From sequence record MW598459: a stretch of DNA of 64,000 nt; one strand, written 5' to 3'. This document shows positions 4,121 through 50,437 of this stretch, one piece after another (the first letter of the stretch is position 1; every line of letters begins with the position of its first letter). The position numbers and the translations under genes are program-made. The notes under the pieces were generated by a model. The model saw only the letters and a program-made list of their open reading frames with translations. It was not told where the DNA came from and searched no databases. The stretch is from Escherichia phage vB_EcoM_RZ.

Positions 4121-4409
4121 ATTTTTTCCAATCAGAAATCATATGAATCTCTTGGTCATAAGTCAAGAGACTACGAGTAATAATACCCTTACAAGGCCCA
4201 GAGATGAACTCGAGAGTAAAGTAAGGAACCTGTTTCATTAATCGGATACTTGGAGCATGACATCTAAAACGAGAGCCCTTAAAGGGCCCCGACATGAATA
4301 CATATTCTAATGGATAGAAATAAGCATATTCAAAATTTGTAGTAAGGTCCTCTCTTCGGACCTTACGTGAGAAATAGCAGAACTCAAAAAGTTCTTCATC
4401 AGTCATCAT
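4113..4409 (-). CDS. hypothetical protein
   Basis: 98-aa ORF in operon packing. Confidence 0.45.
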   Translation of the reverse strand: MMTDEELFEFCYFSRKVRREDLTTNFEYAYFYPLEYVFMSGPFKGSRFRCHAPSIRLMKQVPYFTLEFISGPCKGIITRSLLTYDQEIHMISDWKKYV

Positions 4410-4933
4410 TGCATTCCTATCACAAAGAACAGTGGCAGAGGTTTAGAACCTTGGCACATAAATTTATTCATCATTGTCTGATAAGCTTCATAGAACTTAT
4501 CCATCGCTGGTAGGCGAATAGGCTCTTCAATAATAATCAATAATCGGGTAACAGACAGTCCACGATATTTGTGAAAATGATCTTCATCTAAAAATGAACG
4601 AACAGTATCATATACAACAAAACCAGGTCGTTCAACATTAAGATGTGGCTGTGCTTTAGAAACCCGCTTTATTATATCACAGATTTCTCGTGAGCGATGC
4701 GAAGAACTCGACATAACAATTACATCATTACCCTTAGAAACCCAATCCGCAGCAAATTGTGCAATGGCACTTGTTTTACCTGTTTGCCTTCCGCCGTCAA
4801 GTCTAAGAGTACCAAACTCTTGCATTCTTGAAGCGGGTTCATACCAGGTGTATTGGTCTGAATCTAAGCGTTCAATGGCGCGTTCAGCGAAGGCGTGCAT
4901 TAAGGTTAGATAAATGGGAGTTAAAAATTTCAT
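4406..4933 (-). CDS. small P-loop NTPase-like protein
   Basis: 175 aa; Walker A GGRQTGKTS and Walker-B-like hydrophobic stretch LLIIIEEP. Confidence 0.5.
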   Translation of the reverse strand: MKFLTPIYLTLMHAFAERAIERLDSDQYTWYEPASRMQEFGTLRLDGGRQTGKTSAIAQFAADWVSKGNDVIVMSSSSHRSREICDIIKRVSKAQPHLNVERPGFVVYDTVRSFLDEDHFHKYRGLSVTRLLIIIEEPIRLPAMDKFYEAYQTMMNKFMCQGSKPLPLFFVIGMQ

Positions 4934-5093
4934 AGTTGCCTCTTAGTTGTGGGGCCGTTCCTTGGCACATAATTCATCCGTGTATCCGTATGTAAACCCT
5001 TTACCGCACTTGGGCTCGACCTTATTACAGGTAGGGAAAGGTCCATCACTCAGAGGACGCAACGTTCATGAGGAGAGGGTCGGCTTGCCTTTA

Positions 5094-5393
5094 TTAGAAA
5101 GAACCAGAGCCTTTAATTGTGTTCTGGCGACCTTTATTTTCTAATTCAGAATGGTCGATTTCGTATGCTTGTGCTACACCAAAGGCCTTTTTAACTTTAG
5201 CTAAAGAACCTTTAGATGTAACAATATTAAAAGTATTACCTTTGGTAAAATCAACCAAATCAACTTGTACACCCTGTTTACCGAGGCTTGCGACAATAGC
5301 ATCAACATATTGTTGGTCTAAAGTACCTTGGACTCCAATTTGGAATGCTTTAGGGGCTTTGGCTTCTGTGATAAATTCTTGATAAGTTTTCAT
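5094..5393 (-). CDS. internal-protein-like head protein with capsid-targeting sequence
   Basis: Start at internal MKTYQEFITEAK; matches the N-terminal capsid-targeting sequence of T4 internal proteins (IPI/II/III); sits next to denV/e as ipII/ipIII do in T4. Confidence 0.6.
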   Translation of the reverse strand: MKTYQEFITEAKAPKAFQIGVQGTLDQQYVDAIVASLGKQGVQVDLVDFTKGNTFNIVTSKGSLAKVKKAFGVAQAYEIDHSELENKGRQNTIKGSGSF

Positions 5394-5441
5394 TTTATAT
5401 TCCATTGTTTGGCTGATAAAATCATTATACAACCTTTTTAG

Positions 5442-5858
5442 TTAAGCGTACACAGCTTTCCCATAGTATTTGTACCAAGCAGGCTTTTGAGAAATTTTCT
5501 CATTCAGTCTGGCTTGACTGATTTCAATTGACCAGATTGATGGTTGATAATCATTCTTCCATTCATCAGGAATATCAGTTAAATCTTGGGTAGAAATATC
5601 TTTTATGTTAAACCCTCGCTTTAAACATTCCGCAATAAGTTCTTGATGCCGGTTTTTAAGGAACAAAAGCTTATCATAAAAGAAGATGACATGACCAGTC
5701 CCTAAAAGGAAAGATGATGGGATTTTAAAGTCAGAAACCTTTTTACCATTTTGTACATGCTTACGAACAGCACCAAACACGCGAGGAAGTTCACGATATT
5801 CAGCCATAAGATGTTGGTCAGCGAGTTCAGATACCAGGGTTAAATTAATGCGAGTCAT
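5442..5858 (-). CDS. denV: endonuclease V (pyrimidine-dimer DNA glycosylase)
   Basis: 138 aa; N-terminus [35 protein letters not shown] near-identical to T4 DenV. Confidence 0.95.
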
Positions 5859-14973: not shown

Positions 14974-15050
14974 TGGTCGGGGTGGTGGGATTCTAACCCA
15001 CAACCTACGGTTTAGAAGACCGTTGCTCTATACAATTGAGCTACACCCCG
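14974..15050 (-). tRNA. tRNA-Arg (anticodon TCT), CCA encoded
   Basis: Minus strand CGGGGTG acceptor pairs with CACCCCG; anticodon stem-loop ACGGT-CTTCTAA-ACCGT; T-loop GGTTAGAATCC; 3' ACCA. Confidence 0.75.
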
Positions 15051-15127
15051 GGTGGCCCCATCCAGATTTGAACTGGTAACCTTTCCCTTATGAGGGGACT
15101 GCTGCTAACCAATTGAGCTACAGGGCC
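15051..15127 (-). tRNA. tRNA with CAT anticodon (Met or Ile2-type)
   Basis: Minus strand GGCCCTGTAGCTCAATTGGTTAGCAG..CCCCTCATAAGGG..GTTCAAATCTGG..TGGGGCCACC; anticodon loop CTCATAA. Confidence 0.6.
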
Positions 15128-15918: not shown

Positions 15919-16103
15919 TTACTCACCTTTAGAGATTTTATCCATAACGAAAGAGATTGAACCAATTAAAAATGCAACTACTAAAGAGATTATATTCTCA
16001 GAAGTTGAAAGCATATTCAACATAAAGCCAGCAAACATGCTAAAACCAAAAGTGGTAACAGCAACAAGGGCAGTAACATTTCTAATTAATTCGCAACGTT
16101 TCA
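15919..16103 (-). CDS. small membrane protein
   Basis: Start at MKRCELIRNVTALVAVTTFGFSMFAGFML with SD GAGGAG; two hydrophobic segments. Confidence 0.4.
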
Positions 16104-16123
16104 TTTTATTCTCCTCAGTAGTT

Positions 16124-16148
16124 GATAGGTCTAGGTTATGATATACTA
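16124..16148 (-). promoter_or_regulatory. stem-loop plus conserved early leader (variant promoter cassette)
   Basis: Inverted repeat GGTCTAG-TATATCATAA-CCTAGACC followed by TATCAACTACTGAGGAG leader; -35/-10 assignment unclear. Confidence 0.35.
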
Positions 16149-16162
16149 GACCAGTAACTGTT

Positions 16163-16384
16163 TTATTCAGCACCAACGGCTTTCAAAAGTTTTTTAAGGT
16201 TGACAATACCACGGGCAGAGAAAGTAACCTTACCACCTGTTTCAGATACAGAACCTGTAAGTTTTGCCAATTTATCATTTGGTAACTTTTTAAAATCCTT
16301 CAGTGTACCATCAAAAGTTTTAGATTGAATCGGCAATTCGTCATGCATTTTAGCTTCGTTAATAAATTCTTGATACGTTTTCAT
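16163..16384 (-). CDS. internal-protein-like protein with capsid-targeting sequence
   Basis: N-terminus MKTYQEFINEAK (MKTYQEFI + I-x-E motif); own early promoter. Confidence 0.65.
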   Translation of the reverse strand: MKTYQEFINEAKMHDELPIQSKTFDGTLKDFKKLPNDKLAKLTGSVSETGGKVTFSARGIVNLKKLLKAVGAE

Positions 16385-16412
16385 TTTTTGACCCTCAGTA
16401 GTTGATGGGATA

Positions 16413-16441
16413 ATTATACGCTATCCCATTTAAAAGTACAC
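16413..16441 (-). promoter_or_regulatory. T4-type early promoter cassette with dyad around -10
   Basis: Minus strand GTGTAC-N17-TATAAT; ATGGGATA/TATCCCAT inverted repeat flanks the -10; leader TATCCCATCAACTACTGAGGG. Confidence 0.55.
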
Positions 16442-16696
16442 TTATTTTTTAGGGATACGATAGTAACGCATCTCAACATCTTTCTGCTTGTACCACTTTT
16501 TGATAAGGTCTTCAGAACCGCTAATAGTAACGATGTCATAACGACCATCATGCGATACTTCAGCACTTAACTGCATGAAATTGTCCAGTGAACGACGGAA
16601 TTCCTCATTGGAAAAACTGCCACGCGGCGAACCAACATAAGCAAACTCAACTTTTGCATTTGCAGATTCAGTAATAAATTCTTGATAAGTTTTCAT
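16442..16696 (-). CDS. internal-protein-like protein with capsid-targeting sequence
   Basis: Start at MKTYQEFITESA; own early promoter. Confidence 0.65.
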   Translation of the reverse strand: MKTYQEFITESANAKVEFAYVGSPRGSFSNEEFRRSLDNFMQLSAEVSHDGRYDIVTISGSEDLIKKWYKQKDVEMRYYRIPKK

Positions 16697-16722
16697 ATAG
16701 TCTCCAGTAGTTGATGAGATAA

Positions 16723-16752
16723 TCATACTACAGTTATCCCATCGCGTATACT
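16723..16752 (-). promoter_or_regulatory. T4-type early promoter cassette with dyad around -10
   Basis: Minus strand GTATAC-N18-TATGAT; GATGGGATAA/TTATCTCATC inverted repeat; leader CAACTACTGGAG. Confidence 0.55.
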
Positions 16753-16995
16753 TTATTTTAAGTCTTCCAGACGTTTTTTCATCTTGGTGCCGTTCTTAGC
16801 AATTTCACCCGCGTCTGAACAAAGAGCAAGGAGAGCTTTAACTTTACCCTGGTCGCCTTTAAAAGATGATGCATCTACAGAATCGGCAAGTTCTTTGATA
16901 CGTGCAAACAGGCGCTCTGCTTCAGCAAGGGCTTGACCAAGTTTAACTTCCATACCATGGGAAGATTCTGTTATAAATGTTTGATAAGTTTTCAT
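16753..16995 (-). CDS. internal-protein-like protein with capsid-targeting sequence
   Basis: N-terminus MKTYQTFITESS. Confidence 0.65.
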   Translation of the reverse strand: MKTYQTFITESSHGMEVKLGQALAEAERLFARIKELADSVDASSFKGDQGKVKALLALCSDAGEIAKNGTKMKKRLEDLK

Positions 16996-17003
16996 TTGAA
17001 GCC

Positions 17004-17276
17004 TTATTTAAGATAAATTGCATATTTTTTATAACCAGCTGTCTCATGACGGAGACCCTTGTCATTGGCAAAACGCTCAATGTTATTAATTTGGTTCTGG
17101 TCAAGTTCTGAAATGTCAAACGCGAAAAAGTTGCGTTTGTTACCAATTGTTATATGGTCAGTCAAGTCAATGCTATACAGGTGATTGATATTGTCAATCA
17201 TAGATTTGACTGCTTTACTAATTTTTACTTCTTCATTCAGTTGTGACTCGTTGAAAAATTCATTGAAAGTTTTCAT
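17004..17276 (-). CDS. internal-protein-like protein (divergent capsid-targeting sequence)
   Basis: N-terminus MKTFNEFFNESQ. Confidence 0.55.
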   Translation of the reverse strand: MKTFNEFFNESQLNEEVKISKAVKSMIDNINHLYSIDLTDHITIGNKRNFFAFDISELDQNQINNIERFANDKGLRHETAGYKKYAIYLK

Positions 17277-17284
17277 AAGAAACC

Positions 17285-17617
17285 TTATTTATAAAGTTTT
17301 GCCAGTTCTTTACGTCCACGAGCAGACATAATAAATTGTTCATCGCCAATTTTAAAATATGCCATACCACCGTCAACAGCGATACCAATTTCTTTAGTAC
17401 CTTCTTTGCCTTTCCACTTGCCACCAGATTTCAGGACAGCTTCAACTGCAGCTTTGGAATATTTGGACGTTTGAAAACGTTCATTACCAATCTGAAAGAA
17501 AACACCATCTGCATTTTTGGTTAAACCAAATTTCAGAGAGCCTTCACTATCATCAATTGATTTGGTCTCATTGATGGCGGATTCGGCTAAAAACTCGTTG
17601 TAAGTTTTGATGTTCAT
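17285..17617 (-). CDS. internal-protein-like protein (divergent capsid-targeting sequence)
   Basis: N-terminus MNIKTYNEFLAESA; lysine/glycine-rich body; own early promoter. Confidence 0.55.
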   Translation of the reverse strand: MNIKTYNEFLAESAINETKSIDDSEGSLKFGLTKNADGVFFQIGNERFQTSKYSKAAVEAVLKSGGKWKGKEGTKEIGIAVDGGMAYFKIGDEQFIMSARGRKELAKLYK

Positions 17618-17648: not shown

Positions 17649-17677
17649 ATAATACTGCACCTACACTCATTTGTACA

Positions 17678-17678
<1 letters not shown>
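17649..17678 (-). promoter_or_regulatory. T4-type early promoter cassette with dyad around -10
   Basis: Minus strand GTGTAC-N18-TATTAT; inverted repeat GTGTAGGTG/CACCTACAC flanks the -10. Confidence 0.5.
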
Positions 17679-18368
<690 letters not shown>

Positions 18369-21777: not shown

Positions 21778-22380
21778 ATGCTTTTTTCATTTTTTAACCC
21801 AATTGATTATGATGCAAAAACAATCAGAAAAAACTCGGCATCATTAACGAAAGAAGACGTCTTAAGCATCCCAATGACTGACATCTTCAGAAACTATCGT
21901 GCCTATTTTGATAAGGTTGCGGTTAATTATACACCAAAAACATATTACATCGCTGGAGCTCCGAGACCTGAAGAACTTGCATACCAGCTCTATGGAAACA
22001 CGCAACTCTATTGGGTTCTCCTTATGCTTAATAATATCTATGACCCTTATTATGGTTGGATATGTTCACAAGAATCATCGTATCAGGCATCAATTCAACG
22101 CTATTCAAATATAGGTGGTAATCAGGTTCTTTATCATGTAAATGAAGATGGTGAAAAATTCTGGAATCTTGTTTCTTATCCTGATAATCCGTACACCTGG
22201 TATGATAAAGGTGATAAGAATAAATTGTACCCACAATATGAAGGTCCATTGGCTGCAGTAGATATCTATGAAGATGCTATTCGCAAAAATGAATATAAAC
22301 GAGAAATAAAGATAATCGACCCTAATGATATCGAATCATTTATTTCGGCATTAATCCGTGAGATGGAGAAGGCATTATGA
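21778..22380 (+). CDS. 53: baseplate wedge protein gp53
   Basis: Start at ATG after SD AATGGAGG; 200 aa; position before gene 5. Confidence 0.75.
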   Translation: MLFSFFNPIDYDAKTIRKNSASLTKEDVLSIPMTDIFRNYRAYFDKVAVNYTPKTYYIAGAPRPEELAYQLYGNTQLYWVLLMLNNIYDPYYGWICSQESSYQASIQRYSNIGGNQVLYHVNEDGEKFWNLVSYPDNPYTWYDKGDKNKLYPQYEGPLAAVDIYEDAIRKNEYKREIKIIDPNDIESFISALIREMEKAL

Positions 22381-24119
22381 TTAATATGTCAGATAATGTA
22401 AGTTGGTTCGTCGGTGTTGTCGAAGACCGAATGGACCCACTTCAACAAGGCCGAGTCCGTGTCCGTGTATGGGGTATGCATCCATATGAGAAATCGCAAG
22501 GGCCTGTAAAAGGTATCAGAACTGAAGACCTGCCATGGATGTCTGTACTGATGCCAACATCATCTGCATCAGTTTCTGGTATTCAAACTGCAATGACCGG
22601 TATGGTGCCAGGGACTCAAGTATATGGTCACTTTTTAGACAAGTGGAAACTCAACGGGCTTGTTATTGGTACGTATGGTTCAGCCTCAAGACAAAAAGCA
22701 AATCCCAACGAAGGCTTCTCTGACCCCACAGGACAATATCCACTTTATGTAGGTAATGATGCTGCTGCGCTCAACCGTGGCGGTGAGGTTGGTTATGATG
22801 CAACTTCGAACGTAATTCAGGATGCAAACACCGATGTAGGTATTAACCCTGATGGCCTTGATTTGAGTCAAGTTAAGCCAGATGATAATCCTAATTTCAC
22901 AATTGAAAATATGCTTCACCGTGATGAAGGTCTTCGTTTGAAAGTATATTGGGACACCGAAGGTTATCCTACTATAGGTATAGGACACTTAATTGCACCA
23001 CAACCTATTAGAGATATGAATCAGATAAACAAAATATTATCTAATCAAATAGGCCGTGAAGTTAAAGGTAACCCTGGTGCAATATCAATGGACGAGGCTT
23101 CTAAGTTATTCCAGGAAGACCTTAAAAAAGTTCAAAACGATATAGGCCGGCATAGTGTTGTAGGCCCGGTTTACAATAAAGAAAACCGTTCGAGACAAAT
23201 GGCTCTTGAAAACATGGCTTTCCAAATGGGATTGGGTGGGCTTGCTAAATTTAAAACGATGCTCGCTGCAATGTTAGCCGGAGATTATAAGAAAGCATTT
23301 GATGCCGCCCGTGATTCTGTATGGTTTAACCAAACTAAAGGCCGTGCATCAAGGGTATCAATGATTATCCTCACAGGTAATATGGAATCATATGGTATTA
23401 TGGCCCCTAAAGAAAGGTCATTTAAAGGGCGTTCATATAGGATGATTCAAACCTTTGCAGCCCCTGCAAATTCTGACCCAGCCGACCCGTGGACTCCAGA
23501 AGATACGAGGATTTTGTTTAAAGAGCCAGAATCCAGTTACAAGGGCGAATATCCTTATGTGCAGACAATGCAAACTGAAGGCGGGCATGTTCAGGAATTC
23601 GATAACACCCCTGGACAAGAACGTTATCGACTGATTCACCCGACCGGTTCCTATGAGGAAGTTGCACCAGATGGTCGTAAGACTTCGAAGACAGTGGCTG
23701 ATGGATATTATATGACCCAGGGCGATTCGAGTACTTACGTTGGCGGTAATAATAAAGTCAACGTTGGTGGTGATGAAACCTATTATAATATGGCTAACGT
23801 TCGTCGTCAGACCGATGGAAACGAAAGCATTCATATTCGTGGGAATGAAACCAAAACCATTGAAGGTGACGGTACAATTATTGTCAAAGGTAATGTAAGT
23901 ATTCTGGTCGAAGGTAATGCTGAAATAACTGTTAAAGGTGACGCAAAAACTCTTGTCGAAGGTAACCATGATTATACGGTAAATGGTAATGTCAAATGGT
24001 CCGTTAATGGAAACGTTGATATGACCGTGGCTGGCAATTGGTCCGAAACAATGTCAACAATGAGTTCTATTGCATCTGGTCAATATACTATTGATGGTTC
24101 GAGGATTGACATTGGCTAA
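22377..24119 (+). CDS. 5: baseplate hub + tail lysozyme gp5
   Basis: 580 aa; N-terminal OB domain, lysozyme domain (DEGLRLKVYWDTEGYPTIGIGHLI) and C-terminal beta-helix repeats (VEGNAEITVKGDAKTLVEGN). Confidence 0.95.
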   Translation: MINMSDNVSWFVGVVEDRMDPLQQGRVRVRVWGMHPYEKSQGPVKGIRTEDLPWMSVLMPTSSASVSGIQTAMTGMVPGTQVYGHFLDKWKLNGLVIGTYGSASRQKANPNEGFSDPTGQYPLYVGNDAAALNRGGEVGYDATSNVIQDANTDVGINPDGLDLSQVKPDDNPNFTIENMLHRDEGLRLKVYWDTEGYPTIGIGHLIAPQPIRDMNQINKILSNQIGREVKGNPGAISMDEASKLFQEDLKKVQNDIGRHSVVGPVYNKENRSRQMALENMAFQMGLGGLAKFKTMLAAMLAGDYKKAFDAARDSVWFNQTKGRASRVSMIILTGNMESYGIMAPKERSFKGRSYRMIQTFAAPANSDPADPWTPEDTRILFKEPESSYKGEYPYVQTMQTEGGHVQEFDNTPGQERYRLIHPTGSYEEVAPDGRKTSKTVADGYYMTQGDSSTYVGGNNKVNVGGDETYYNMANVRRQTDGNESIHIRGNETKTIEGDGTIIVKGNVSILVEGNAEITVKGDAKTLVEGNHDYTVNGNVKWSVNGNVDMTVAGNWSETMSTMSSIASGQYTIDGSRIDIG

Positions 24120-24129
24120 TATACTTCCA

Positions 24130-24651
24130 ATGAGCACTGACCTAGGAGACTCCATGGAAGGAGCCTCAATCGATGTTACGTTTACGGCTCAATTAGAAAC
24201 AAACGAAACATTAGTCGAAATAAATATAACTGAATATGAGGCCACCCCTGGCGTTAATGTTGAGGAGAATCATCTTTATGGTGTTTATGAATCCGTGTTC
24301 GGATTCGCAGATGATGCACTTAAATATCGGCTTAATGATGAATTCAAAACTGCCGGTTCATGGGAAGACCTTCCTACCGATAAGAGTACTCAATTGTATC
24401 TCTGGAGGGCTCCAGCGAGCCTCCAGAAGGTCTTTTCATACACGGTAACCCTAACCTATGACTTTCAAGAAGAGAGCTCTGGTGGAGACACAGGGAGCTC
24501 CGGCGGCAGTAATAGCCGTGCAGGTAATGAGACCGACCCACCTCCTGCTCCAGTAAGAAAAACAATGACAAAAGTTTACACAAAAACTATCGTTGGTAAC
24601 TGGTCAAGATGGGCAGATAAACTGCGTTCATACGTATACGCGAGGGATTAA
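24130..24651 (+). CDS. 5.1: gp5.1-like hypothetical protein
   Basis: Start at MSTDLGD just after gp5 stop; position matches T4 5.1. Confidence 0.5.
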
Positions 24652-24944
24652 TGGCTGGATTAAGTTTTAATCAATGTGTTACAGCAGGCCACGAAGCATG
24701 GCCACCGACTGTAATTAATGCAACTCAAGGTAAAGTATTCACCGGGGGAATTCCGGTGTTAGTTGCCGGAGACCCTATTACCGAGCATACCGAAATTAAA
24801 AAACCATATGAAACTCACGGTGGAGTAACACAACCGCGCACATCAAAAGTATTTGTTACCGGTAAGAAAGCTGTTCAAATGGCAGACCCGATTTCATGTG
24901 GTGATACTGTGGCTCAAGCCTCATCAAAAGTCTTTATAAAATAG
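24651..24944 (+). CDS. 5.4: PAAR-repeat tail spike tip protein gp5.4
   Basis: 97 aa (T4 gp5.4 97 aa); position after 5.1; Gly/Pro-rich small protein. Confidence 0.75.
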
Positions 24945-24952
24945 GAAATAAA

Positions 24953-26899
24953 ATGGCTACTCCTACGAATTACCAATTAACAAGAACCGTTAACGCTATC
25001 CCAAAAGTATTTGTGGGAGCTACGTTTGAAGAAATTAAAAAGAACATCATCGACTGGTTATCAAGCCAGGATGAATTTAAGGATTATGATTTCGTAGGTT
25101 CGCGAATGAATATCCTGATTGATATGCTTGCGTATAATACACTTTATATGCAGCAGTTTGCTAATACAGCAGTTTATGAATCATTTATCGGAACTGCAAA
25201 CTTAAGGTCTTCGGTTGTTCAGGCGGCACAGGATAATGGATATCTTCCATCTTCACGTTCGGCCGCAAAGACTTCGGTTATGTTGACATGTTCTCATGCT
25301 CTACAACCATCGAATATTGAAATCCCACGAGGAACTAAATTCCTGGCCTATGCTCGTGATACATCAGCTGACCCTTATGTTTTTGTTACCACGGAAAACG
25401 TTATCGCGGTTAAAGATATTAACAACCAATACCTTCCGATTGTATCTCTGGCACAGGGTCGTATTATTCGTACGGAACTTTTATATGACCCGAAACAACC
25501 TATTCTTATCCGCGACCCGGATATCGACCGCAAAGAAGTTAAGTTATATGTGAATGGTGTTGAGTGGGATGACTGGACGAACAAATCAATGGTTCATGCT
25601 GGTTCGACTTCCACCATATTTTATATGCGTGAAACAATCGATGGCTATACCGAATTTTTCTTTGGTGAAGGTGAATCCACCAAATCTGTAGCTGGTGGTG
25701 TTATGGAAGCCAACTATATTGGCGGTCTCAAACCTGTGCAAGATTCGACAATTGTTATTGAATATCTTCGTACCTCAGGGGCAGATGCAAACGGTGCTGT
25801 TGATTTCAGTTATGCCGATACTTTGTCCTATATAACAGTGGATAAAATTACTGAAAACTATAATAACGACCCTGATTATGTCGGTGCCGATGGCGGTGGT
25901 GACCCAGAAGATATCGAACGTATCCGTGAACTAGCTGTTGTTAAACGTGAAGCGCAGATGCGTGCTGTCACCGGAACGGATTATGATACCTTCGTATCCG
26001 AAAGATTTGGCTCAATCGTGCAAGCCGTACAGACGTTTACAGACGCTAATAAACCTGGGTATGCGTTTATATCAGTTAAGCCTAAATCGGGCTTGTATCT
26101 CACTGCAGTGCAGCGTGAGGACATCCAGAACTACCTTAGCGAGTTCAACGTATCAACAATTACACCATCGGTAATTTCTCCGGATTATTTGTTCCTTAAA
26201 CATAATATCAAAGTATCTTATGCGCTGAACAAATTACAAGAATCTGAACAATGGTTGCAAGCACAAATCATTAATCAGATTGACCGTTATTATATCGATG
26301 AAGTTGAAATCTTTAACAGAAGTTTTGCTAAGTCAAAAATGCTTACATATGTGGATAATACTGACCATAGTATTCTTGGTTCATCTGCAACCATTTCGAT
26401 GGTGCGTGAAGTCCTGAACTTCTTTAAGACTCCAGAATCCGGCATTAAATACTATAACCAGTATGGCAACCGTTCAGTCGAATCAAGTGAATTTGAATTT
26501 GTTCCGACCACGGGTGAAGCCTATAACGTTCGCATTGTCGCAACTGATAAAGATTCTCGTGGTGACGGTAAAATGGTAATTGGTCCATTCCGTCCAGGCG
26601 ATGTTATTGAAAATGTAAACATCCAGCCTTACCTACTAGATGACTTTAATAAAATGGAAGCTCCGGCTGACCAAACAGTTTATTACGCAATTGGCGAAAT
26701 TGACTATTACTCTGATTATATTTTTTGGGATATCGCTGCGATTGGATTGACCTCCGACCGCTTTGAAGTTCAATCAATCGAACTTTATGCAAGCCCTAAC
26801 CAAGATAATATATACACGCAAGATGGTTCACTGATTGTATTTGAGAATGACCTTCGTCCGCAATATACAAAGATTGACCTTGAACCAATTACACTATAA
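24953..26899 (+). CDS. 6: baseplate wedge protein gp6
   Basis: 648 aa (T4 gp6 about 660 aa); in the 5-6-7-8 order. Confidence 0.85.
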   Translation: MATPTNYQLTRTVNAIPKVFVGATFEEIKKNIIDWLSSQDEFKDYDFVGSRMNILIDMLAYNTLYMQQFANTAVYESFIGTANLRSSVVQAAQDNGYLPSSRSAAKTSVMLTCSHALQPSNIEIPRGTKFLAYARDTSADPYVFVTTENVIAVKDINNQYLPIVSLAQGRIIRTELLYDPKQPILIRDPDIDRKEVKLYVNGVEWDDWTNKSMVHAGSTSTIFYMRETIDGYTEFFFGEGESTKSVAGGVMEANYIGGLKPVQDSTIVIEYLRTSGADANGAVDFSYADTLSYITVDKITENYNNDPDYVGADGGGDPEDIERIRELAVVKREAQMRAVTGTDYDTFVSERFGSIVQAVQTFTDANKPGYAFISVKPKSGLYLTAVQREDIQNYLSEFNVSTITPSVISPDYLFLKHNIKVSYALNKLQESEQWLQAQIINQIDRYYIDEVEIFNRSFAKSKMLTYVDNTDHSILGSSATISMVREVLNFFKTPESGIKYYNQYGNRSVESSEFEFVPTTGEAYNVRIVATDKDSRGDGKMVIGPFRPGDVIENVNIQPYLLDDFNKMEAPADQTVYYAIGEIDYYSDYIFWDIAAIGLTSDRFEVQSIELYASPNQDNIYTQDGSLIVFENDLRPQYTKIDLEPITL

Positions 26900-26919
26900 G
26901 CCTCTTCGGAGGCTTTTTA
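26899..26919 (+). terminator. hairpin terminator/attenuator between genes 6 and 7
   Basis: AGCCTCTTCGGAGGCT hairpin (UUCG-type loop) followed by TTTTT. Confidence 0.45.
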
Positions 26920-26927
26920 AGGAAACC

Positions 26928-29900
26928 ATGATGAGTGTTAAAGCCCCTTATGTAACCAGCTTACGGATTGATAAACTATCTGCTAACCAGGTTAGCATAA
27001 AATGGGATAATGTTGGCGCCAACTTTTATTATTTTGTTGAGATTGCTCCGACAAAAGAAAATGGTGTTGCTATTCCAGAAGAAAATCTGTTATGGAGGAA
27101 TTTAGGTTATACTCCAGACAATGAATGGTTCGAACAAGATTTTATTCGTCCAGTATCATTTTACAAAATGCGTGTTGCTGTTGCAGCAATGGGTTTTGAA
27201 CAATCTGATTGGGTTTATACCGAAGAATTTGAAACCTTTGCAACTAACGCATACACATTTGAACACATGCGTGAGTTTACATTAACAAATAAATTCATCG
27301 AAGAAAAATTCACAAACAATAATCAGGCTTATATCAACTTTAATAATGATGCAATTATGGCATCGTTGATGTCTGAAGATTTTAGCTTTACTCCTGCCTA
27401 TTCTCATTTGTCTTCAATTTCAAACTATGTATTAAAAGAAGACCAATATCACGAAATTCAGGGTAGTATTCAGCCAGTGTGTAACGATGTTAATCGTACG
27501 ATGATTGCTGAACTCGGTGGTGTACTGTATTTGTTTGAACGATTCCAGACAACGGTCAAAGTCTCCAATGATAAAGGGCAGAACTGGTATTATGTAAAAT
27601 TGTTTAATGACCGTATCGGTAACCCGGTTTCGCGCACAATTTATTATCAATCAGATACGACAACTTACGTACTCGGGTATGACCGAATTTTTTACGGTCG
27701 CAAATCAAGTGATATAAGATGGTCTGCTGATGATGTTCGATTCAGTTCTCAGGATATAACATTTGCAAAAATTGGTTCGGATATCAATCTCGGATTTGAT
27801 ATTGAAATATTTGGCACATACGCAAGACTCCCGGCATACATCTCGACAATTGCCGAAGCAATTACTACCACCGATTCCATGATTTACGTTGCCGGGCGCG
27901 ACCGCGTATACAAGGCTAAATCTTCTGATGCTCCAATTGATAACGACCCTAACTCTCCAACATTCGGTGAAAAATTATTTGAAGCTGGATATAGTACAAT
28001 AAGCGGCAACCCAAAAGCTGTTTGTTACAAGATGGATTCAATTGACGGTGAAGTGTTTGCATTAATCACGGGTGAAGTAAAGGAAGAACGCCAAGACCCG
28101 ACTAAGCCTGAAAACGTTGTCGATTCATTATCAAAGGGCGTTTATAAATTAAATACCGATACCGATACATGGACACGAGTTTTTGGTAATACAGAGGATG
28201 AACGTCGCCGTATTGAACATGGTTACACAAGCATGTCAACTGATGGAATTGAACTTTTTATCAGTTCAAGTAACTTCCGTTATTCCGTTGAGCCAGATAC
28301 CGAACTCCCTGCTAAGTATCCTGAAGAAGTTAACGAAGCAGTCAAATATGTGTATGATGAACAATGGATACATGACAAGCATTATTTGATGATGAGTTTT
28401 AGGTCGAATAAAGATTCAGGTTGGGAAGAGTTTAAACCTGGACGTATGTCATATTACGCTGAACCGTTCTTTAACTGGTCTCGCCGTGATGATACTCGTT
28501 GTTGGATTACCACATCAGACAGAGCTCTGGTTGTATATAATGACATGCTGTATCAAAAGATTATCGATACCTTTGGTGGTTCATCCCCTGAACGTATTGT
28601 GCACGAATACTGGAATAAAGGTCAAGTGAAAGTTACTTCTCCTAACATCGAATTCAATGGCTTTAAAAAATATGCCTCGGGTATTATGTTACATAAAAAT
28701 ACTGGTGAGCTTATTGGTTATTTTGAATTCGACTATCGTATGCGTGATGAAGTTAGATTAATCTGGAAACCGAAAGAAGTTATGTTCACTGCAGAATTAC
28801 AGAACCAGGAACATGATATTCCATGGACCCCGGATAATGATGAACAAGAGAAAGACCCGGACTTGCGTCCTCTTTTAACAAAGATGGTTCCGGATAGTTA
28901 TTTGCTCCAGGATAGCAACTTCGAAAAATTCTGTGAATATTATTTGCAGTTTATCAGTGATGGTTCTGGCACATATTATAACAACCTTTTGAACTTGATT
29001 CGCAACCAATACCCACGCGAGGAAGATGCATGGGAATACCTTTGGAGTGAAATGTACAAAAGAAATATATATTTGTCAAAGACCAAGCGTGACGAAGTAG
29101 TTCGTTTCTTTGAAGCAAGACAGTCTGATTTTTGGGCAACCAAGGGGACTGAAGCATCCTATAAGTTTTTATTCAAATTGTTATATAATGAAGACGTTGA
29201 AATCGATATTGAATCCAAGAACGGAACCGAGTATGACATAATCGTCGAATCTGATAACATCAGCGAAGATATTGTTGGACAAACAATTTACACACCAACT
29301 GGCCGCAGTAACGTTACCTATATGGAGCGTGACTACAAACAGGGTAAATTGAGATGGCGTATCACGATTCATAACTTGCTTGGTCGCTTTATTGTTGGGC
29401 AAGAAATTAAATCCGAAAGGACTTCCTTTGAAGGCATGATTGTTCAGGGTGTTCGCGGAAAAGAATTACTTAGCAACAACATCGATTATATCAACCGAAA
29501 TCGTTCTTACTATGTAATGACCATTAAATCAAGTCTCCCAACATCTCGTTATCGTAATGACGTATTGAGATTTGTTCATCCGGTTGGATTTGGATTCGTT
29601 GGAATTACATTATTGACAATGTTTGTTAATGCTGGTCTGTCATTAAAACACACAGAAACCATTATCAATAAACTGAACAACTATCGTTGGTCGTCGGGTA
29701 TTCCGTCAGAATGGTGTGACCGTATCGCAGTTATTGGAGCCGATGGAAACATTGAGCATAATGCTGTTACAGGCGAAGCAGTATATAATATTGCTCCTAA
29801 CGCAGGTTTACCGTTCCCATTACCAGCAGATTATGACGCCGAAAACGATTTTTCAGATTTTCATGGGACTCTCCCATCTGAACGTCGTAAAAAATACAGT

Positions 29901-30026
29901 CCATTGTTTGACCAGTCCGCCGTGACTTTTGCTAACTGGCGCAATTTGGTTAATCAACGTCTTAAGGATGATATTGGTAATCCACGCGACCCGAAAGACC
30001 CCACACAGGTAAAGGTAAATGAATAA
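26928..30026 (+). CDS. 7: baseplate wedge protein gp7
   Basis: Start at ATGATG after SD AAGGAAACC gives 1032 aa, the T4 gp7 length. Confidence 0.85.
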   Translation: MMSVKAPYVTSLRIDKLSANQVSIKWDNVGANFYYFVEIAPTKENGVAIPEENLLWRNLGYTPDNEWFEQDFIRPVSFYKMRVAVAAMGFEQSDWVYTEEFETFATNAYTFEHMREFTLTNKFIEEKFTNNNQAYINFNNDAIMASLMSEDFSFTPAYSHLSSISNYVLKEDQYHEIQGSIQPVCNDVNRTMIAELGGVLYLFERFQTTVKVSNDKGQNWYYVKLFNDRIGNPVSRTIYYQSDTTTYVLGYDRIFYGRKSSDIRWSADDVRFSSQDITFAKIGSDINLGFDIEIFGTYARLPAYISTIAEAITTTDSMIYVAGRDRVYKAKSSDAPIDNDPNSPTFGEKLFEAGYSTISGNPKAVCYKMDSIDGEVFALITGEVKEERQDPTKPENVVDSLSKGVYKLNTDTDTWTRVFGNTEDERRRIEHGYTSMSTDGIELFISSSNFRYSVEPDTELPAKYPEEVNEAVKYVYDEQWIHDKHYLMMSFRSNKDSGWEEFKPGRMSYYAEPFFNWSRRDDTRCWITTSDRALVVYNDMLYQKIIDTFGGSSPERIVHEYWNKGQVKVTSPNIEFNGFKKYASGIMLHKNTGELIGYFEFDYRMRDEVRLIWKPKEVMFTAELQNQEHDIPWTPDNDEQEKDPDLRPLLTKMVPDSYLLQDSNFEKFCEYYLQFISDGSGTYYNNLLNLIRNQYPREEDAWEYLWSEMYKRNIYLSKTKRDEVVRFFEARQSDFWATKGTEASYKFLFKLLYNEDVEIDIESKNGTEYDIIVESDNISEDIVGQTIYTPTGRSNVTYMERDYKQGKLRWRITIHNLLGRFIVGQEIKSERTSFEGMIVQGVRGKELLSNNIDYINRNRSYYVMTIKSSLPTSRYRNDVLRFVHPVGFGFVGITLLTMFVNAGLSLKHTETIINKLNNYRWSSGIPSEWCDRIAVIGADGNIEHNAVTGEAVYNIAPNAGLPFPLPADYDAENDFSDFHGTLPSERRKKYSPLFDQSAVTFANWRNLVNQRLKDDIGNPRDPKDPTQVKVNE

Positions 30027-31023: not shown

Positions 31024-31026
31024 CAA

Positions 31027-31048
31027 GGGACCTTCGGGTCCCTTTTTT
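31027..31048 (+). terminator. rho-independent terminator after gene 8
   Basis: GGGACCTTCGGGTCCC hairpin + TTTTTT. Confidence 0.65.
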
Positions 31049-31053
31049 ATTCT

Positions 31054-31061
31054 ATAAATAT
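31054..31061 (+). promoter_or_regulatory. late promoter TATAAATA for gene 9
   Basis: Exact TATAAATA 27 nt upstream of gp9 ATG. Confidence 0.6.
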
Positions 31062-31087
31062 AGCTATATCAATAACGAGGCTTACCT

Positions 31088-35983: not shown

Positions 35984-35991
35984 GGACCAAA

Positions 35992-48520: not shown

Positions 48521-48948
48521 TGTTTATTATCCCTGATGATTACGAATTAACTCTTGAAAACATCGAAAGTGTTTCCGAAGAAGCTCAGGGACAATTTGAT
48601 TCATTATCTGAAGCCTTAGAAAAAGACGATATAAATATTATTGTAGAAAACATGTTTGCAGCCGGTGAATACGAAAAAGCAACGGTTATCGGCGCTCTGA
48701 ATGAAGGTGTTCAGCTTAACGAATTTATCGTTAAACATGTATCGTCTCGCGGTGAGTTAACCCGCACAAAAGACCGAGCTACTCGTAAGCGTAATGCTTT
48801 CCAAACAACTGGTCTTTCTAAAGCTAAACGTCGTCAAATTGCCCGTCTGGCTACTAAAACGAAAAGAGCAAACCCATCTACGCAAATCAGAGCAGAGCGC
48901 AAGCGCAAAAAAGCTCGAGCTAAGCGTAAAGCATTCGGACTTGATTAA
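48520..48948 (+). CDS. 68: prohead core protein gp68
   Basis: 142 aa (T4 gp68 141 aa); basic C-terminus. Confidence 0.7.
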
Positions 48949-49586
48949 TGGAACAGAAACCAGAGTTACTAATCGAACACTGGGGTCAACCGGGCGAAAT
49001 TAAAGATGGTGTACCGATGTTGGAATCTCATGATGGTTCCAGCAGCGGTTTAAAGCCAGGACTTTATATTGAAGGTATTTTCCTACAAGCTGAAGTTGTT
49101 AACCGTAATAAACGACTTTATCCTAAACATATTTTGGAAAAAGCCGTTGCGGACTATATCGCCGAACAGGTTGAAACCAAGCAGTCTCTTGGAGAATTAA
49201 ACCATCCACCTCGTGCAAACGTTGACCCTATGCAGGCGGCAATTATTATCGAGGAAATGTGGTGGAAAGGGAATGATGTATATGGCCGCGCTCGTATTAT
49301 CGAAGGCGACCATGGCCCAGGTGATAAACTTGCTGCGAATATAAGAGCAGGTTGGATTCCTGGTGTATCTAGTCGTGGACTTGGTTCCCTGACTAAATCA
49401 GCAAAAGGTTATAGCATCGTTAATGAAGGTTTTAAATTGACGGTTGGAGTAGACGCAGTATGGGGGCCAAGTGCTCCGGACGCTTGGGTCAAACCAAAGC
49501 AGATTACAGAATCACAAACGGCTGTTGCCGATACCAGTGCCGATGACGCCTTTATGGCTCTCGCAGAGGCTTTAAAGGCGTTATAA
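48948..49586 (+). CDS. 21: prohead core scaffold protease gp21
   Basis: 212 aa (T4 gp21 212 aa); position before gene 22. Confidence 0.9.
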   Translation: MEQKPELLIEHWGQPGEIKDGVPMLESHDGSSSGLKPGLYIEGIFLQAEVVNRNKRLYPKHILEKAVADYIAEQVETKQSLGELNHPPRANVDPMQAAIIIEEMWWKGNDVYGRARIIEGDHGPGDKLAANIRAGWIPGVSSRGLGSLTKSAKGYSIVNEGFKLTVGVDAVWGPSAPDAWVKPKQITESQTAVADTSADDAFMALAEALKAL

Positions 49587-49618: not shown

Positions 49619-50437
49619 ATGCTTAAAGAACAACTCATTGCCGAAGCTCAGAATATCGATGCTTCCGTTGCTCTCGATAGTATTTTCGAATCAGTTAATT
49701 TGTCCCCGGAAGCGAAAGCTACCTTCGGCACTGTATTCGAAGCTACCGTCAAGCAACACGCCATCAAACTGGCAGAATCTCACATTCACGCCATCGCTGA
49801 AAAAGCTGAAGAAGAAGTCGAAAAGAATAAAGAAGAATCCGACGAAAAAGCAGAGAAAAAACTGAAAGAATCTGCAGCTAAATTCCTGGACCACGTTGCT
49901 AAAGAATGGCTTGCTGAAAATAAACTGGCTGTCGACCGTGGCATTAAAGCTGACCTGTTCGAATCCATGTTCACCGGCATGAAAGAACTGTTCGTTGAGC
50001 ACAACGTTGTTGTTCCGGAAGAATCTGTCGATGTTGTCGCAGAAATGCAGGAAGAACTGGCTGAACAGAAAGAAGAAACCGCTAGCCTGTTCGAAGAAGT
50101 TTCTAAGCGTGATGCTTATATCAATTATGTCCAACGTGAAGTTGCGTTGACTGAAGCAACTAAAGACCTGACTGAATCTCAGAAAGAAAAAGTTGGTTCT
50201 CTGGTAGAAGGCATGGAATACTCTGATGCATTCGGTACCAAAATTGGCGCTATCGTTGAAATGGTTAAAGGACAGGTAGAACCCACCGACAAACCAATCA
50301 CCGAAGCCGCTATAAATAAAAATGTAGACGATGCTGCGGCACTGAATTACATTTCAGAAGCAGTTGAAGAAAAAGGCGCCAAGCCTACCCTGTCCTTCGC
50401 GGACTTGTCTGCTCTCGCAGCATCACGAATTTCTTAA
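49619..50437 (+). CDS. 22: prohead core scaffold protein gp22
   Basis: 272 aa, highly acidic helical protein (T4 gp22 269 aa). Confidence 0.85.
   Translation: MLKEQLIAEAQNIDASVALDSIFESVNLSPEAKATFGTVFEATVKQHAIKLAESHIHAIAEKAEEEVEKNKEESDEKAEKKLKESAAKFLDHVAKEWLAENKLAVDRGIKADLFESMFTGMKELFVEHNVVVPEESVDVVAEMQEELAEQKEETASLFEEVSKRDAYINYVQREVALTEATKDLTESQKEKVGSLVEGMEYSDAFGTKIGAIVEMVKGQVEPTDKPITEAAINKNVDDAAALNYISEAVEEKGAKPTLSFADLSALAASRIS
50311..50318 (+). promoter_or_regulatory. late promoter TATAAATA for gene 23 (inside 3' end of gene 22)
   Basis: Exact TATAAATA about 140 nt upstream of gp23 ATG. Confidence 0.5.

What the first reader, a model, noticed from the sequence alone, without database searches (positions are those of the whole stretch)
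16163..17617. Tandem array of five internal-protein genes with capsid-targeting N-termini, plus a sixth at 5094-5393
Six ORFs start with MKTYQEFI(T/N)E(A/S) or close variants (MKTYQTFITESS, MKTFNEFFNESQ, MNIKTYNEFLAESA). This is the N-terminal capsid-targeting sequence of T4 internal proteins, which are packaged in the head, processed by gp21 and injected with the DNA. The bodies downstream of the targeting sequence are unrelated to each other. T4 carries three ip genes; IPI is known to block a host type IV restriction enzyme. Five differently bodied ip genes in tandem, most with their own early-promoter cassette, look like a diversified set of injected anti-defence candidates.
Basis: partly seen in the sequence, partly recalled or inferred. 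Interest (0 to 1): 0.6.

Follow-up and report, generated by a model that had tools for sequence, protein, structure and literature searches.

The report
T4-like phage internal-protein gene array
This is the known hypervariable internal-protein locus of a T4-like coliphage: six small genes share a head-packaging leader, and their products are probably injected with the DNA to disarm host defences. It is real, but it is already described in the literature and annotated in near-identical public genomes.

Summary
Six minus-strand ORFs (17285-17617, 17004-17276, 16753-16995, 16442-16696, 16163-16384, 5094-5393) begin with a T4 capsid-targeting sequence (CTS). No other ORF in the 64 kb does. Their bodies show no detectable similarity to each other or to T4 Ip1-3.

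The window is a Gaprivervirus (T4-like), 99% identical here to Escherichia phage DK-13. The five-gene array fills the T4 ipI slot between 57B (Acb1) and trna.4. The sixth gene is the Ip7 homologue beside denV. The gp21 prohead protease, the gp22 scaffold and a conserved gp23 cleavage site are also in the window.

All six proteins exist verbatim in public databases. Five are named internal head or virion protein (Ip9, Ip5, Ip6-like, Ip7). Diverse Ips sharing only a CTS, proposed as injected anti-restriction proteins, were described in 1994. In 2025, T4 Ip1, Ip2 and Ip3 were each shown to block a different GmrSD enzyme.

Only three of the five array genes have their own promoter cassette. Breakpoints against relatives fall at CTS and cassette sequences.

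Small new points: the first gene is never annotated as an Ip, has a shifted start, and is predicted to have a Whirly/PUR-like fold. The lineage also appears to lack the glucosyl-hmC genes.

Verdict: already known; low interest.

The parts
17285..17617 (-). ipA: 110 aa, MNIKTYNEFLAE|S..., VR7 gp156 family (phrog_3966, 'unknown function'). The CTS is displaced by 2 residues. The predicted body is two beta4-alpha repeats (Whirly/PUR-like).
17004..17276 (-). ipB: 90 aa, Ip9 homologue (phrog_7673). It has F-N-E at positions 8-10 and a canonical L-N-E at 13-15. It has no promoter of its own and starts 8 nt after the ipA stop.
16753..16995 (-). ipC: 80 aa, Ip5 homologue (phrog_3499). It has no promoter of its own and starts 8 nt after the ipB stop.
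16442..16696 (-). ipD: 84 aa, a rare divergent Ip6-like protein (phrog_8111, E=1.9e-13). Only 3 clusters were found by the word-seeded search of the 5.8-billion-protein collection.
16163..16384 (-). ipE: 73 aa, phrog_8765 'internal virion protein'. Related 74-aa proteins occur at the same locus in other T4-like phages.
5094..5393 (-). ipF: 99 aa, Ip7 homologue (phrog_2667). It lies between denV (5442-5858) and vs.8 (4406-4933). The predicted body has a ferredoxin-like fold.
17649..17678 (-). Early-promoter and stem-loop cassette (PeSL type) serving ipA-ipB-ipC: GTGTAC-N17-TATTAT, with a 9-bp stem enclosing the -10 hexamer.
16722..16751 (-). Cassette serving ipD: GTATAC-N18-TATGAT with a stem-loop, followed by the leader ATCAACTACTGGAG.
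16413..16441 (-). Cassette serving ipE: GTGTAC-N17-TATAAT with a stem-loop, followed by the leader ATCAACTACTGAGG.
5424..5453 (-). Early promoter serving ipF: GTGTAC-N17-TATAAT. It overlaps the 3' end of denV and has no stem-loop.
16105..16162 (-). Stem-loop plus ATCAACTACTGAGGAG leader upstream of trna.4. This is the right-hand point where homology with relatives resumes.
17678..18133 (-). 57B, the Acb1 anti-CBASS phosphodiesterase. It is the conserved left flank of the array.
15919..16104 (-). trna.4 homologue (61 aa, hydrophobic; 'predicted membrane protein' in SP18). It is the conserved right flank of the array.
48948..49586 (+). gp21 prohead serine protease (Peptidase_S77). This is the enzyme expected to remove the CTS.
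49619..50437 (+). gp22 scaffolding core protein. This is the structure into which the CTS is thought to target Ips.

Best explanation
These are the two internal-protein (ip) loci of a Gaprivervirus, a T4-like coliphage. Five ip genes fill the hyperplastic slot between 57B (Acb1) and trna.4, where T4 has ipI alone. They are an unnamed VR7-gp156-type gene, ip9, ip5, an ip6-like gene and an unnamed 73-aa gene. An ip7 homologue lies next to denV. Shown: the gene structures, the shared CTS, the lack of body similarity, the loci, the presence of gp21 and gp22, and the breakpoints against relatives. Inferred by homology with T4 IPIII/IPI: the 10-residue leader carries each protein into the gp22 scaffolding core of the prohead. 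gp21 then cuts after Glu10 (Glu12 in ipA; possibly Glu15 in ipB). This would release 6.8-10.7 kDa, mostly basic proteins that stay with the packaged DNA and enter the cell with it. By analogy with T4 Ip1, Ip2 and Ip3, each of which blocks one GmrSD-type type IV restriction enzyme, each body most likely neutralises one host factor that attacks incoming DNA. Which factor that is remains unknown. The array is assembled by recombination at short shared sequences, namely the CTS-coding DNA and the promoter/stem-loop (PeSL) cassettes. It is transcribed as three early units (ipA-ipB-ipC, ipD, ipE).
For: The window is 99.1% identical to phage DK-13 and 98.2% to Yersinia phage P8 across the array. Synteny matches the T4 order 1, 57A, 57B, ipI, trna.4. 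A CTS is present in six of six and nowhere else in the window. Across 41 distinct CTS-coding sequences, position 4 is aromatic in 40, position 7 is Phe in 40, position 8 is I/L/M/F in 39 and position 10 is Glu in 38. Positions 5 and 9 vary, and synonymous codons are used throughout. This matches the determinants mapped in T4 IPIII (PMC9026906). gp21 matches Peptidase_S77 at E=8e-102. gp22 and gp67 match their Pfam families, and a gp68-size ORF sits between gp67 and gp21. gp23 keeps the L-T-E|AEIGGDHGYD site. Mature proteins have pI 8.8-9.8 (ipB 6.8), like T4 IPI*-III*. Family names Ip5, Ip6, Ip7 and Ip9 appear in relatives. The anti-restriction role of Ip1-3, and the statement that T-even Ips are a diverse defence set sharing only the CTS, come from PMC12373910 and PMC3012670. 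On shuffling: in 28 IMG/VR loci plus references, the slot holds 0-5 CTS genes from at least 12 body families in different combinations. Homology with VR26 stops just after the ipD CTS (16650). Homology with VR20 and VR25 stops at the ipC start (16988). In all three it resumes at the trna.4 cassette (16129). The cassettes have a T4-early-type promoter and a stem-loop around the -10 (dG -9 to -14 kcal/mol, z -2.7 to -4.9), as described for PeSLs (PMC2839356, PMC4122927).
Against: There is no direct evidence here, or in the papers I could reach, that these six proteins are in virions, are cleaved, or are injected. ipA's CTS is not at the extreme N-terminus. All 10 other clusters of its family start MKTY, so its targeting could be impaired. 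ipB has Phe rather than Leu/Ile at position 8. The bodies show no similarity to Ip1, Ip2 or Ip3, so the anti-restriction role is an analogy only. The relative VR26 lacks gene 42, beta-gt and alpha-gt at their T4 positions (PMC8056088). The glucosyl-hmC substrate that makes GmrSD relevant may therefore be absent. No late promoter is evident upstream, although T4 ip genes look the same in this respect.
Confidence: 0.85

Rival explanations
1. The proteins are packaged, but their main role is physical rather than anti-defence. As small basic proteins embedded in the condensed DNA, they would neutralise charge or assist packaging, ejection or head morphogenesis. Their sequence diversity would then reflect weak constraint.
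For: Five of the six mature proteins are basic, with pI 8.8-9.8. T4 heads carry about 1000 Ip molecules embedded in the DNA (PMC3012670). IPIII has been linked to head morphogenesis (PMC9026906). ipA and ipF are predicted to have folds common among nucleic-acid binders.
Against: Weak constraint does not explain why each body family is well conserved across genera. The ipA family has 33 invariant columns and the ipF family has 27. Gene content at the locus turns over by whole-gene replacement. All three T4 Ips now have specific anti-restriction targets.
Confidence: 0.15
2. Some of the six, especially ipA and possibly ipB, are no longer packaged. They would act as ordinary early cytoplasmic proteins, with the CTS-like leader retained only as a relic of recombination.
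For: The canonical Met of ipA is ATC, with a new start two codons upstream. This occurs only in the Gaprivervirus members of the family. ipB has F-N-E instead of L/I-x-E. VR26 Ip9 also has Leu at position 7. All cassettes are of the early-promoter type. One relative (L010) carries a CTS-less version of a protein that has a CTS elsewhere.
Against: ipA keeps Tyr, Phe, Leu and Glu at the four determinant positions. ipB has a canonical L-N-E five residues further on. T4 IPI itself has Phe at position 4 and a 19-residue leader. T4 ip genes show the same promoter layout.
Confidence: 0.15
3. They are injected anti-defence proteins, but their targets are not GmrSD-type type IV enzymes. Candidates are other nucleases or sensors that act on incoming DNA, such as other R-M types, BREX-associated or other nucleases, or nucleic-acid-sensing systems.
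For: VR26 lacks genes 42, beta-gt and alpha-gt at the canonical positions. A published survey found no known hypermodification genes in Gaprivervirus, although denA, denB, alc and gene 56 are present (PMC8056088). The bodies have no similarity to Ip1-3. The array sits next to the anti-CBASS gene acb1.
Against: Ip1-3 are themselves mutually unrelated, yet all target GmrSD enzymes, so lack of similarity says little. The presence of alc and denB suggests that cytosine is still replaced by some modified base, which could attract type IV enzymes. Some GmrSD enzymes also cut hypo-modified DNA.
Confidence: 0.3

Closest known systems
T4 internal proteins IPI, IPII, IPIII (Ip1-3)
   Same: They share the same N-terminal CTS (MKTYQEFIAE in IPII and IPIII; MKTFKEF... 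in IPI) and the same L/I-x-E|A/S cleavage context. Mature size and charge are similar. The genomic neighbourhoods are the same (57B-trna.4; denV/e), and so is the promoter/stem-loop layout upstream.
   Different: The bodies show no detectable sequence or profile similarity. There are five genes where T4 has one. The sixth gene lies on the vs.8 side of denV, not between e and denV. Targets are known for Ip1-3 (distinct GmrSD enzymes) and unknown here.
Ip4-Ip10 series of T-even and related phages (Repoila et al. 1994, as cited in PMC3012670 and PMC12373910), specifically Ip5, Ip6, Ip7 and Ip9
   Same: ipC is Ip5, ipB is Ip9 and ipF is Ip7 by the annotation of near-identical homologues and by full-length PHROG matches. 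ipD is a divergent Ip6 relative.
   Different: ipA (VR7 gp156 family) carries no Ip name in any record seen, and ipE carries no numbered Ip name. ipD is a rare variant with 3 clusters. The 1994 paper itself could not be read.
PeSL (promoter-early stem-loop) cassettes of T4-type phages (Arbiol et al. 2010; Comeau et al. 2014)
   Same: The cassettes have an early sigma-70-type promoter with a stem-loop, flank small non-essential genes in a hyperplastic region, and coincide with replacement breakpoints between close relatives.
   Different: Here the stem encloses the -10 hexamer and is AT-rich (GGGATA...TATCCC type) rather than GGGG...CCCC. Two breakpoints lie in the CTS-coding DNA rather than in a PeSL. 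Terminator and recombination activity were not tested.
Ejection proteins of other phages (P22 gp7/16/20; phiKZ and SPN3US inner-body or E proteins)
   Same: These are proteins packaged in the head, several processed by a gp21-like protease after Glu, and delivered with the DNA.
   Different: They are unrelated in sequence and lack the 10-residue CTS. They are larger and many are essential, whereas T4-type Ips are small and dispensable.

Membership tests
T4-type CTS-bearing internal proteins (Ip) | N-terminal capsid-targeting sequence with the targeting determinants at positions 4 (aromatic) and 7 (Phe) | tested here: met
   Six of six have Y or F at position 4 and F at position 7. In ipA the motif starts at residue 3. 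The determinants are taken from PMC9026906. Across 41 distinct CTSs, positions 4 and 7 are conserved in 40 of 41.
T4-type CTS-bearing internal proteins (Ip) | gp21 processing motif L/I-x-E at positions 8-10, followed by a small residue | tested here: met
   Five of six have I/L-x-E|A/S. ipB has F-N-E|S, with a canonical L-N-E at positions 13-15. Whether cleavage occurs was not tested.
T4-type CTS-bearing internal proteins (Ip) | The genome encodes the gp21 prohead protease and the gp22 scaffolding core | tested here: met
   gp21 (48948-49586) matches PF03420 at E=8e-102. gp22 (49619-50437) matches PF25623 at E=5e-91. gp67 matches PF17634. gp23 has the L-T-E|AEIGGDHGYD site.
T4-type CTS-bearing internal proteins (Ip) | Location in the ipI (57B-trna.4) or denV/e hyperplastic loci | tested here: met
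   The array lies between 57B and trna.4. The sixth gene lies between denV and vs.8, where VR7 has ip10, ORF127c and ip7.
T4-type CTS-bearing internal proteins (Ip) | Homology of the body to a family already called an internal protein | tested here: met
   ipB matches phrog_7673, ipC phrog_3499, ipD phrog_8111, ipE phrog_8765 and ipF phrog_2667, all labelled 'internal head/virion protein'. ipA matches phrog_3966, 'unknown function'. Names in public records are given.
T4-type CTS-bearing internal proteins (Ip) | Physical presence in the virion, removal of the leader, and injection with the DNA | not testable with these tools
   No virion proteome for a Gaprivervirus was found in the paper library.
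Inhibitors of GmrSD-type type IV restriction enzymes (Ip1, Ip2, Ip3) | Sequence or profile similarity of the body to Ip1*, Ip2 or Ip3 | tested here: not met
   BLASTP gave E of 0.18 or worse and hhalign gave at most 1.1% probability against the T4 Ip bodies. The two modelled bodies did not retrieve IPI* in the PDB searches. Ip1-3 are also unrelated to each other, so this feature is weak.
Inhibitors of GmrSD-type type IV restriction enzymes (Ip1, Ip2, Ip3) | Phage DNA carries glucosyl-hmC, the substrate that exposes it to GmrSD | tested here: inconclusive
   The relative VR26 lacks genes 42, beta-gt and alpha-gt at their T4 positions. A published survey agrees. Only the first 50 kb of a relative was inspected, and the actual base composition is unknown.
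Inhibitors of GmrSD-type type IV restriction enzymes (Ip1, Ip2, Ip3) | Relief of restriction by a defined GmrSD enzyme | not testable with these tools
   This needs plaque assays like those in PMC12373910.
PeSL regulatory cassettes | Early sigma-70-type promoter (-35, about 17 nt, -10) combined with a stem-loop in an intergenic position | tested here: met
   The combination is present upstream of ipA, ipD and ipE. It is also upstream of denV, and upstream of trna.4 with a weak -35. ipF has the promoter only. ipB and ipC have none.
PeSL regulatory cassettes | Coincidence with insertion or replacement breakpoints between close relatives | tested here: met
   The right-hand breakpoint at 16129 lies in the trna.4 cassette in VR20, VR25 and VR26. 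The left-hand breakpoints lie at or just after a CTS (16988, 16650).
PeSL regulatory cassettes | Promoter and terminator activity; mini-circle formation | not testable with these tools
   These are experimental properties described in PMC2839356.

The most novel reading that the evidence does not exclude
This T4-like lineage seems to lack the glucosyl-hmC pathway yet carries the largest ip array in my sample. Its six injected proteins may therefore not be GmrSD inhibitors but act on other defences. The never-annotated first gene (VR7 gp156 family) may be an injected Whirly/PUR-fold protein that binds single-stranded nucleic acid, which would be a new kind of Ip activity.
Probability: 0.2. Interest if true: 0.5.

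Novelty: already known. Interest (0 to 1): 0.2.

Why it matters
Internal proteins are delivered with the DNA and act before any phage gene is expressed. This makes them a distinctive class of counter-defence. Only T4 Ip1-3 have known targets. Arrays like this one list further candidates (Ip5, Ip6-like, Ip7, Ip9 and two unnamed families) for the screens that already exist. That value is practical, not conceptual. The locus, the leader, the diversity, the shuffling mechanism and the anti-restriction hypothesis are all published, and the same genes are in GenBank at 98-100% identity.

Tried and rejected
- **Family searches:** Pfam and NCBIfam scans of the six proteins gave nothing above threshold.
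- **PDB sequence searches:** searches with ipA and with its family profile found nothing.
- **Shared fold across Ips:** I considered that all Ips might share the IPI* fold despite lacking sequence similarity. The two models have different topologies from each other, so this was rejected for those two.
- **Late promoter:** the perfect TATAAATA just before ipB overlaps the ipA Tyr-Lys-stop codons and lies too close to the ATG to leave a leader. It is probably a coincidence.
- **RNA in the GC-rich spacer:** the 160-nt spacer after ipF (4934-5093) has no Rfam hit, and its fold z-score is +0.67. RNA gene rejected.
- **Literature not held:** Repoila et al. 1994 and Bair et al. 2007 are not in the library.
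- **Virion proteomics:** searches for a Gaprivervirus virion proteome found nothing usable.
Full report
**What is there.** The region holds five consecutive minus-strand ORFs, and a sixth lies 11 kb away.

| Gene | Coordinates | Length |
|---|---|---|
| ipA | 17285-17617 | 110 aa |
| ipB | 17004-17276 | 90 aa |
| ipC | 16753-16995 | 80 aa |
| ipD | 16442-16696 | 84 aa |
| ipE | 16163-16384 | 73 aa |
| ipF | 5094-5393 | 99 aa |

A six-frame scan of all 64 kb for a CTS-like motif finds exactly these six, each at an ORF start. The 23-nt CTS-coding DNA recurs four times at up to 3 mismatches, against zero expected. Within the six genes, the 30 nt encoding the leader are 77% identical on average. 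The 30 nt upstream are 32% identical and the next 30 nt are 40% identical.

**The bodies are unrelated.** This holds as far as sequence methods can see.
- BLASTP of the mature parts against each other and against T4 IPI, IPII and IPIII gives nothing better than E=0.09 in a nine-sequence database.
- hhalign between 14 family alignments gives at most 11.6% probability.
- Each protein hits a different PHROG over its full length.

**Where the window comes from.** The array and its flanks are 99.1% identical to Escherichia phage DK-13 and 98.2% identical to Yersinia phage vB_YenM_P8. Both DK-13 and the next relatives (VR7, VR20, VR25, VR26, SP18) belong to the genus Gaprivervirus, Tevenvirinae. The gene order 3, 1, 57A, 57B, [ip genes], trna.4, trna.3 is that of T4, where the slot holds ipI alone. 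57B is the anti-CBASS enzyme Acb1 (PF23474, E=2e-59).

The sixth gene lies between denV and a vs.8 homologue. VR7 annotates the same gene there as ip7, 'similar to T2 internal head protein Ip7', next to ip10 and another ip gene. T4's ipII and ipIII lie on the other side of denV.

**Membership in the Ip family.** The review of Black's work (PMC9026906) states three things.
- The first 10 residues of IPIII suffice for packaging.
- Residues 4 and 7 matter for targeting, and residues 8 and 10 for processing.
- gp21 cuts after Glu in L/I-x-E.

All six proteins have Tyr or Phe at position 4, Phe at 7 and Glu at 10. Five have Ile or Leu at 8. ipB has Phe there, with a canonical L-N-E five residues later.

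I collected 28 related loci from IMG/VR with the 57B protein and added T4, VR26, DK-13 and P8. Among 41 distinct CTS-coding sequences:
- position 4 is aromatic in 40;
- position 7 is Phe in 40;
- position 8 is I/L/M/F in 39;
- position 10 is Glu in 38.

Positions 5 and 9 vary freely, and synonymous codons are used at the conserved positions. The constraint therefore acts on the peptide, and on the residues that experiments identified.

The partners are in the same window:
- gp20;
- gp67;
- an ORF in the position and of the size of gp68, which has no Pfam match;
- gp21 (Peptidase_S77, E=8e-102);
- gp22;
- gp23, with the L-T-E|AEIGGDHGYD site.

That this site is the T4 gp23 maturation site rests on my own knowledge. 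The predicted mature proteins are 6.8-10.7 kDa with pI 8.8-9.8 (ipB 6.8), like IPI*, IPII* and IPIII*.

**Names.** Relatives annotate ipC as Ip5, ipB as Ip9 and the ipD position as Ip6. ipD is a divergent Ip6 relative (phrog_8111, E=1.9e-13; BLAST family 1). Only three clusters of it were found by the word-seeded search of the 5.8-billion-protein collection. ipE belongs to phrog_8765, 'internal virion protein'.

All six proteins occur verbatim in public databases, in phages RZ, DK-13, MN01, P8 and others. Five carry an 'internal head/virion protein' name in at least one record. ipA is 'hypothetical protein' in every named record seen. Several records start ipA at an upstream ATG, giving 121 aa and hiding the leader.

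**Regulation.**
- **Cassettes present:** ipA, ipD and ipE are each preceded by GT(G/A)TAC, 17-18 nt, then TAT(A/T/G)AT. A 7-11 bp stem encloses the -10 hexamer (dG -9 to -14 kcal/mol, z -2.7 to -4.9).
- **Shared leader:** for ipD and ipE the cassette is followed by the leader ATCAACTACTG(A/G)G and a Shine-Dalgarno sequence.
- **Same element elsewhere:** it precedes denV, and trna.4 with a poor -35.
- **ipF:** it has the promoter but no stem-loop.
- **ipB and ipC:** they have no cassette and start 8 nt after the preceding stop, with near-identical junctions of the form TAAGG(T/C)TTC(TT/AA)ATG. ipA-ipB-ipC therefore looks like one operon.

T4 shows the same layout upstream of ipI, ipII, ipIII and trna.4. 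These elements match the PeSL cassettes described for T4-type phages, which were proposed to mediate modular shuffling (PMC2839356; PMC4122927).

**How the array is built.** In the sample, the 57B-trna.4 slot holds 0 to 5 CTS genes.

| Phage(s) | CTS genes in the slot |
|---|---|
| Window, DK-13, P8, VR20 | 5 |
| VR25, VR26 | 4 |
| All others in the sample | 0-3 |
| T4 | 1 |

At least 12 body families occur in different combinations. The ipF/Ip7-type family sits in the ipI slot in four other phages. One locus (L009) has an Ip5 body behind a T4-IPI-type 15-residue leader.

The breakpoints are informative.
- Against VR26, the window is collinear at 95% from 57B down to 16650, just past the ipD leader. 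It becomes collinear again at 16129, inside the trna.4 cassette.
- Against VR20 and VR25, collinearity ends at 16988, the first codons of ipC, and resumes at the same 16129.

Whole genes are therefore swapped between short shared patches, namely the CTS-coding DNA and the cassette leader.

**Function.** This part is inferred. [quoted passage not shown] 1994). Silas et al. 2025 showed that T4 Ip1, Ip2 and Ip3 each inhibit a different GmrSD-type enzyme, with no cross-protection. They note that related phages encode at least 10 further Ips of unknown function (PMC12373910).

By analogy, each protein here most likely disables one host factor that attacks entering DNA. I put about 0.6 on an anti-defence role of some kind and about 0.35 on type IV restriction enzymes specifically.

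The second figure is lowered for two reasons. The Gaprivervirus VR26 has no gene 42, beta-gt or alpha-gt at their T4 positions. A published survey also found no known hypermodification genes in this genus, although alc, denA, denB and gene 56 are present (PMC8056088).

**Structure leads.**
- **ipF:** the model (pLDDT 75) has a generic ferredoxin-like fold.

**Verdict.** However, this is the textbook ip locus in a lineage whose genomes are public and mostly annotated this way. Three small points go beyond the annotation: the ipA family is a CTS protein that is not annotated as an Ip in any named record seen, its start is shifted in this genus, and this genus combines the largest arrays in my sample with an apparent lack of the glucosyl-hmC pathway.

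Noticed in passing
window 17678-18133 (-): 57B, immediately upstream of the ip array, is an Acb1 anti-CBASS phosphodiesterase (PF23474, E=1.7e-59). The array therefore adjoins a known counter-defence gene.
   Followed up: partly
window 17606-17617 (-): In ipA the canonical CTS Met codon is ATC (Ile), and translation must start at an ATG two codons upstream (MNIKTY...). All 10 other clusters of the family start MKTY. Several public records instead call a 121-aa ORF from a further upstream ATG.
   Followed up: partly
[not shown]
   Followed up: partly
window 17286-17293 (-): A perfect T4 late-promoter octamer TATAAATA overlaps the ipA Tyr-Lys-stop codons, 9 nt before the ipB ATG. It is probably a coding coincidence.
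   Followed up: no
window 4934-5093: A 160-nt, unusually GC-rich spacer lies between ipF and vs.8. P8 annotates a 117-nt ORF in it. There is no Rfam match and no unusual RNA fold (z +0.67). DK-13 has about 290 bp more than the window in this denV-vs.8 interval, and VR7 has three ip genes there.
   Followed up: partly
window 14974-15127 (-): There are only two tRNA genes (Arg-tct, Met-cat) downstream of trna.3, where T4 has eight tRNAs plus two small RNAs.
   Followed up: no
L034 (VR26, NC_028957) 22328-36247: The Gaprivervirus relative has no gene 42 or beta-gt between uvsX and gene 43. It has no alpha-gt between genes 47 and 55, although a-gt.2 to a-gt.5 remain. Gene 56 is present. A 167-aa hypothetical gene (VR7 gp049 type) sits where gene 42 would be.
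   Followed up: partly
L009 4529-4786: An Ip5-type body is joined to a T4-IPI-type long leader (MKTFKEFAAKTTITE|SSHGMEV...). This shows that leaders and bodies recombine independently.
   Followed up: no
L010 4486-4662: A 58-aa ORF starting MESASSVAIEV corresponds to the body of a 69-aa CTS protein found in L013 and L016, but it lacks the leader. It may be a natural CTS-less variant or a decaying gene.
   Followed up: no
L006 and L008, 5139-5438: VR20 and VR25 carry, in place of ip5, a 99-aa gene starting MQT(L/F)HEFLVEN. This is a strongly diverged leader that keeps Phe7, Leu8 and Glu10 but not Lys2 or Tyr4.
   Followed up: no
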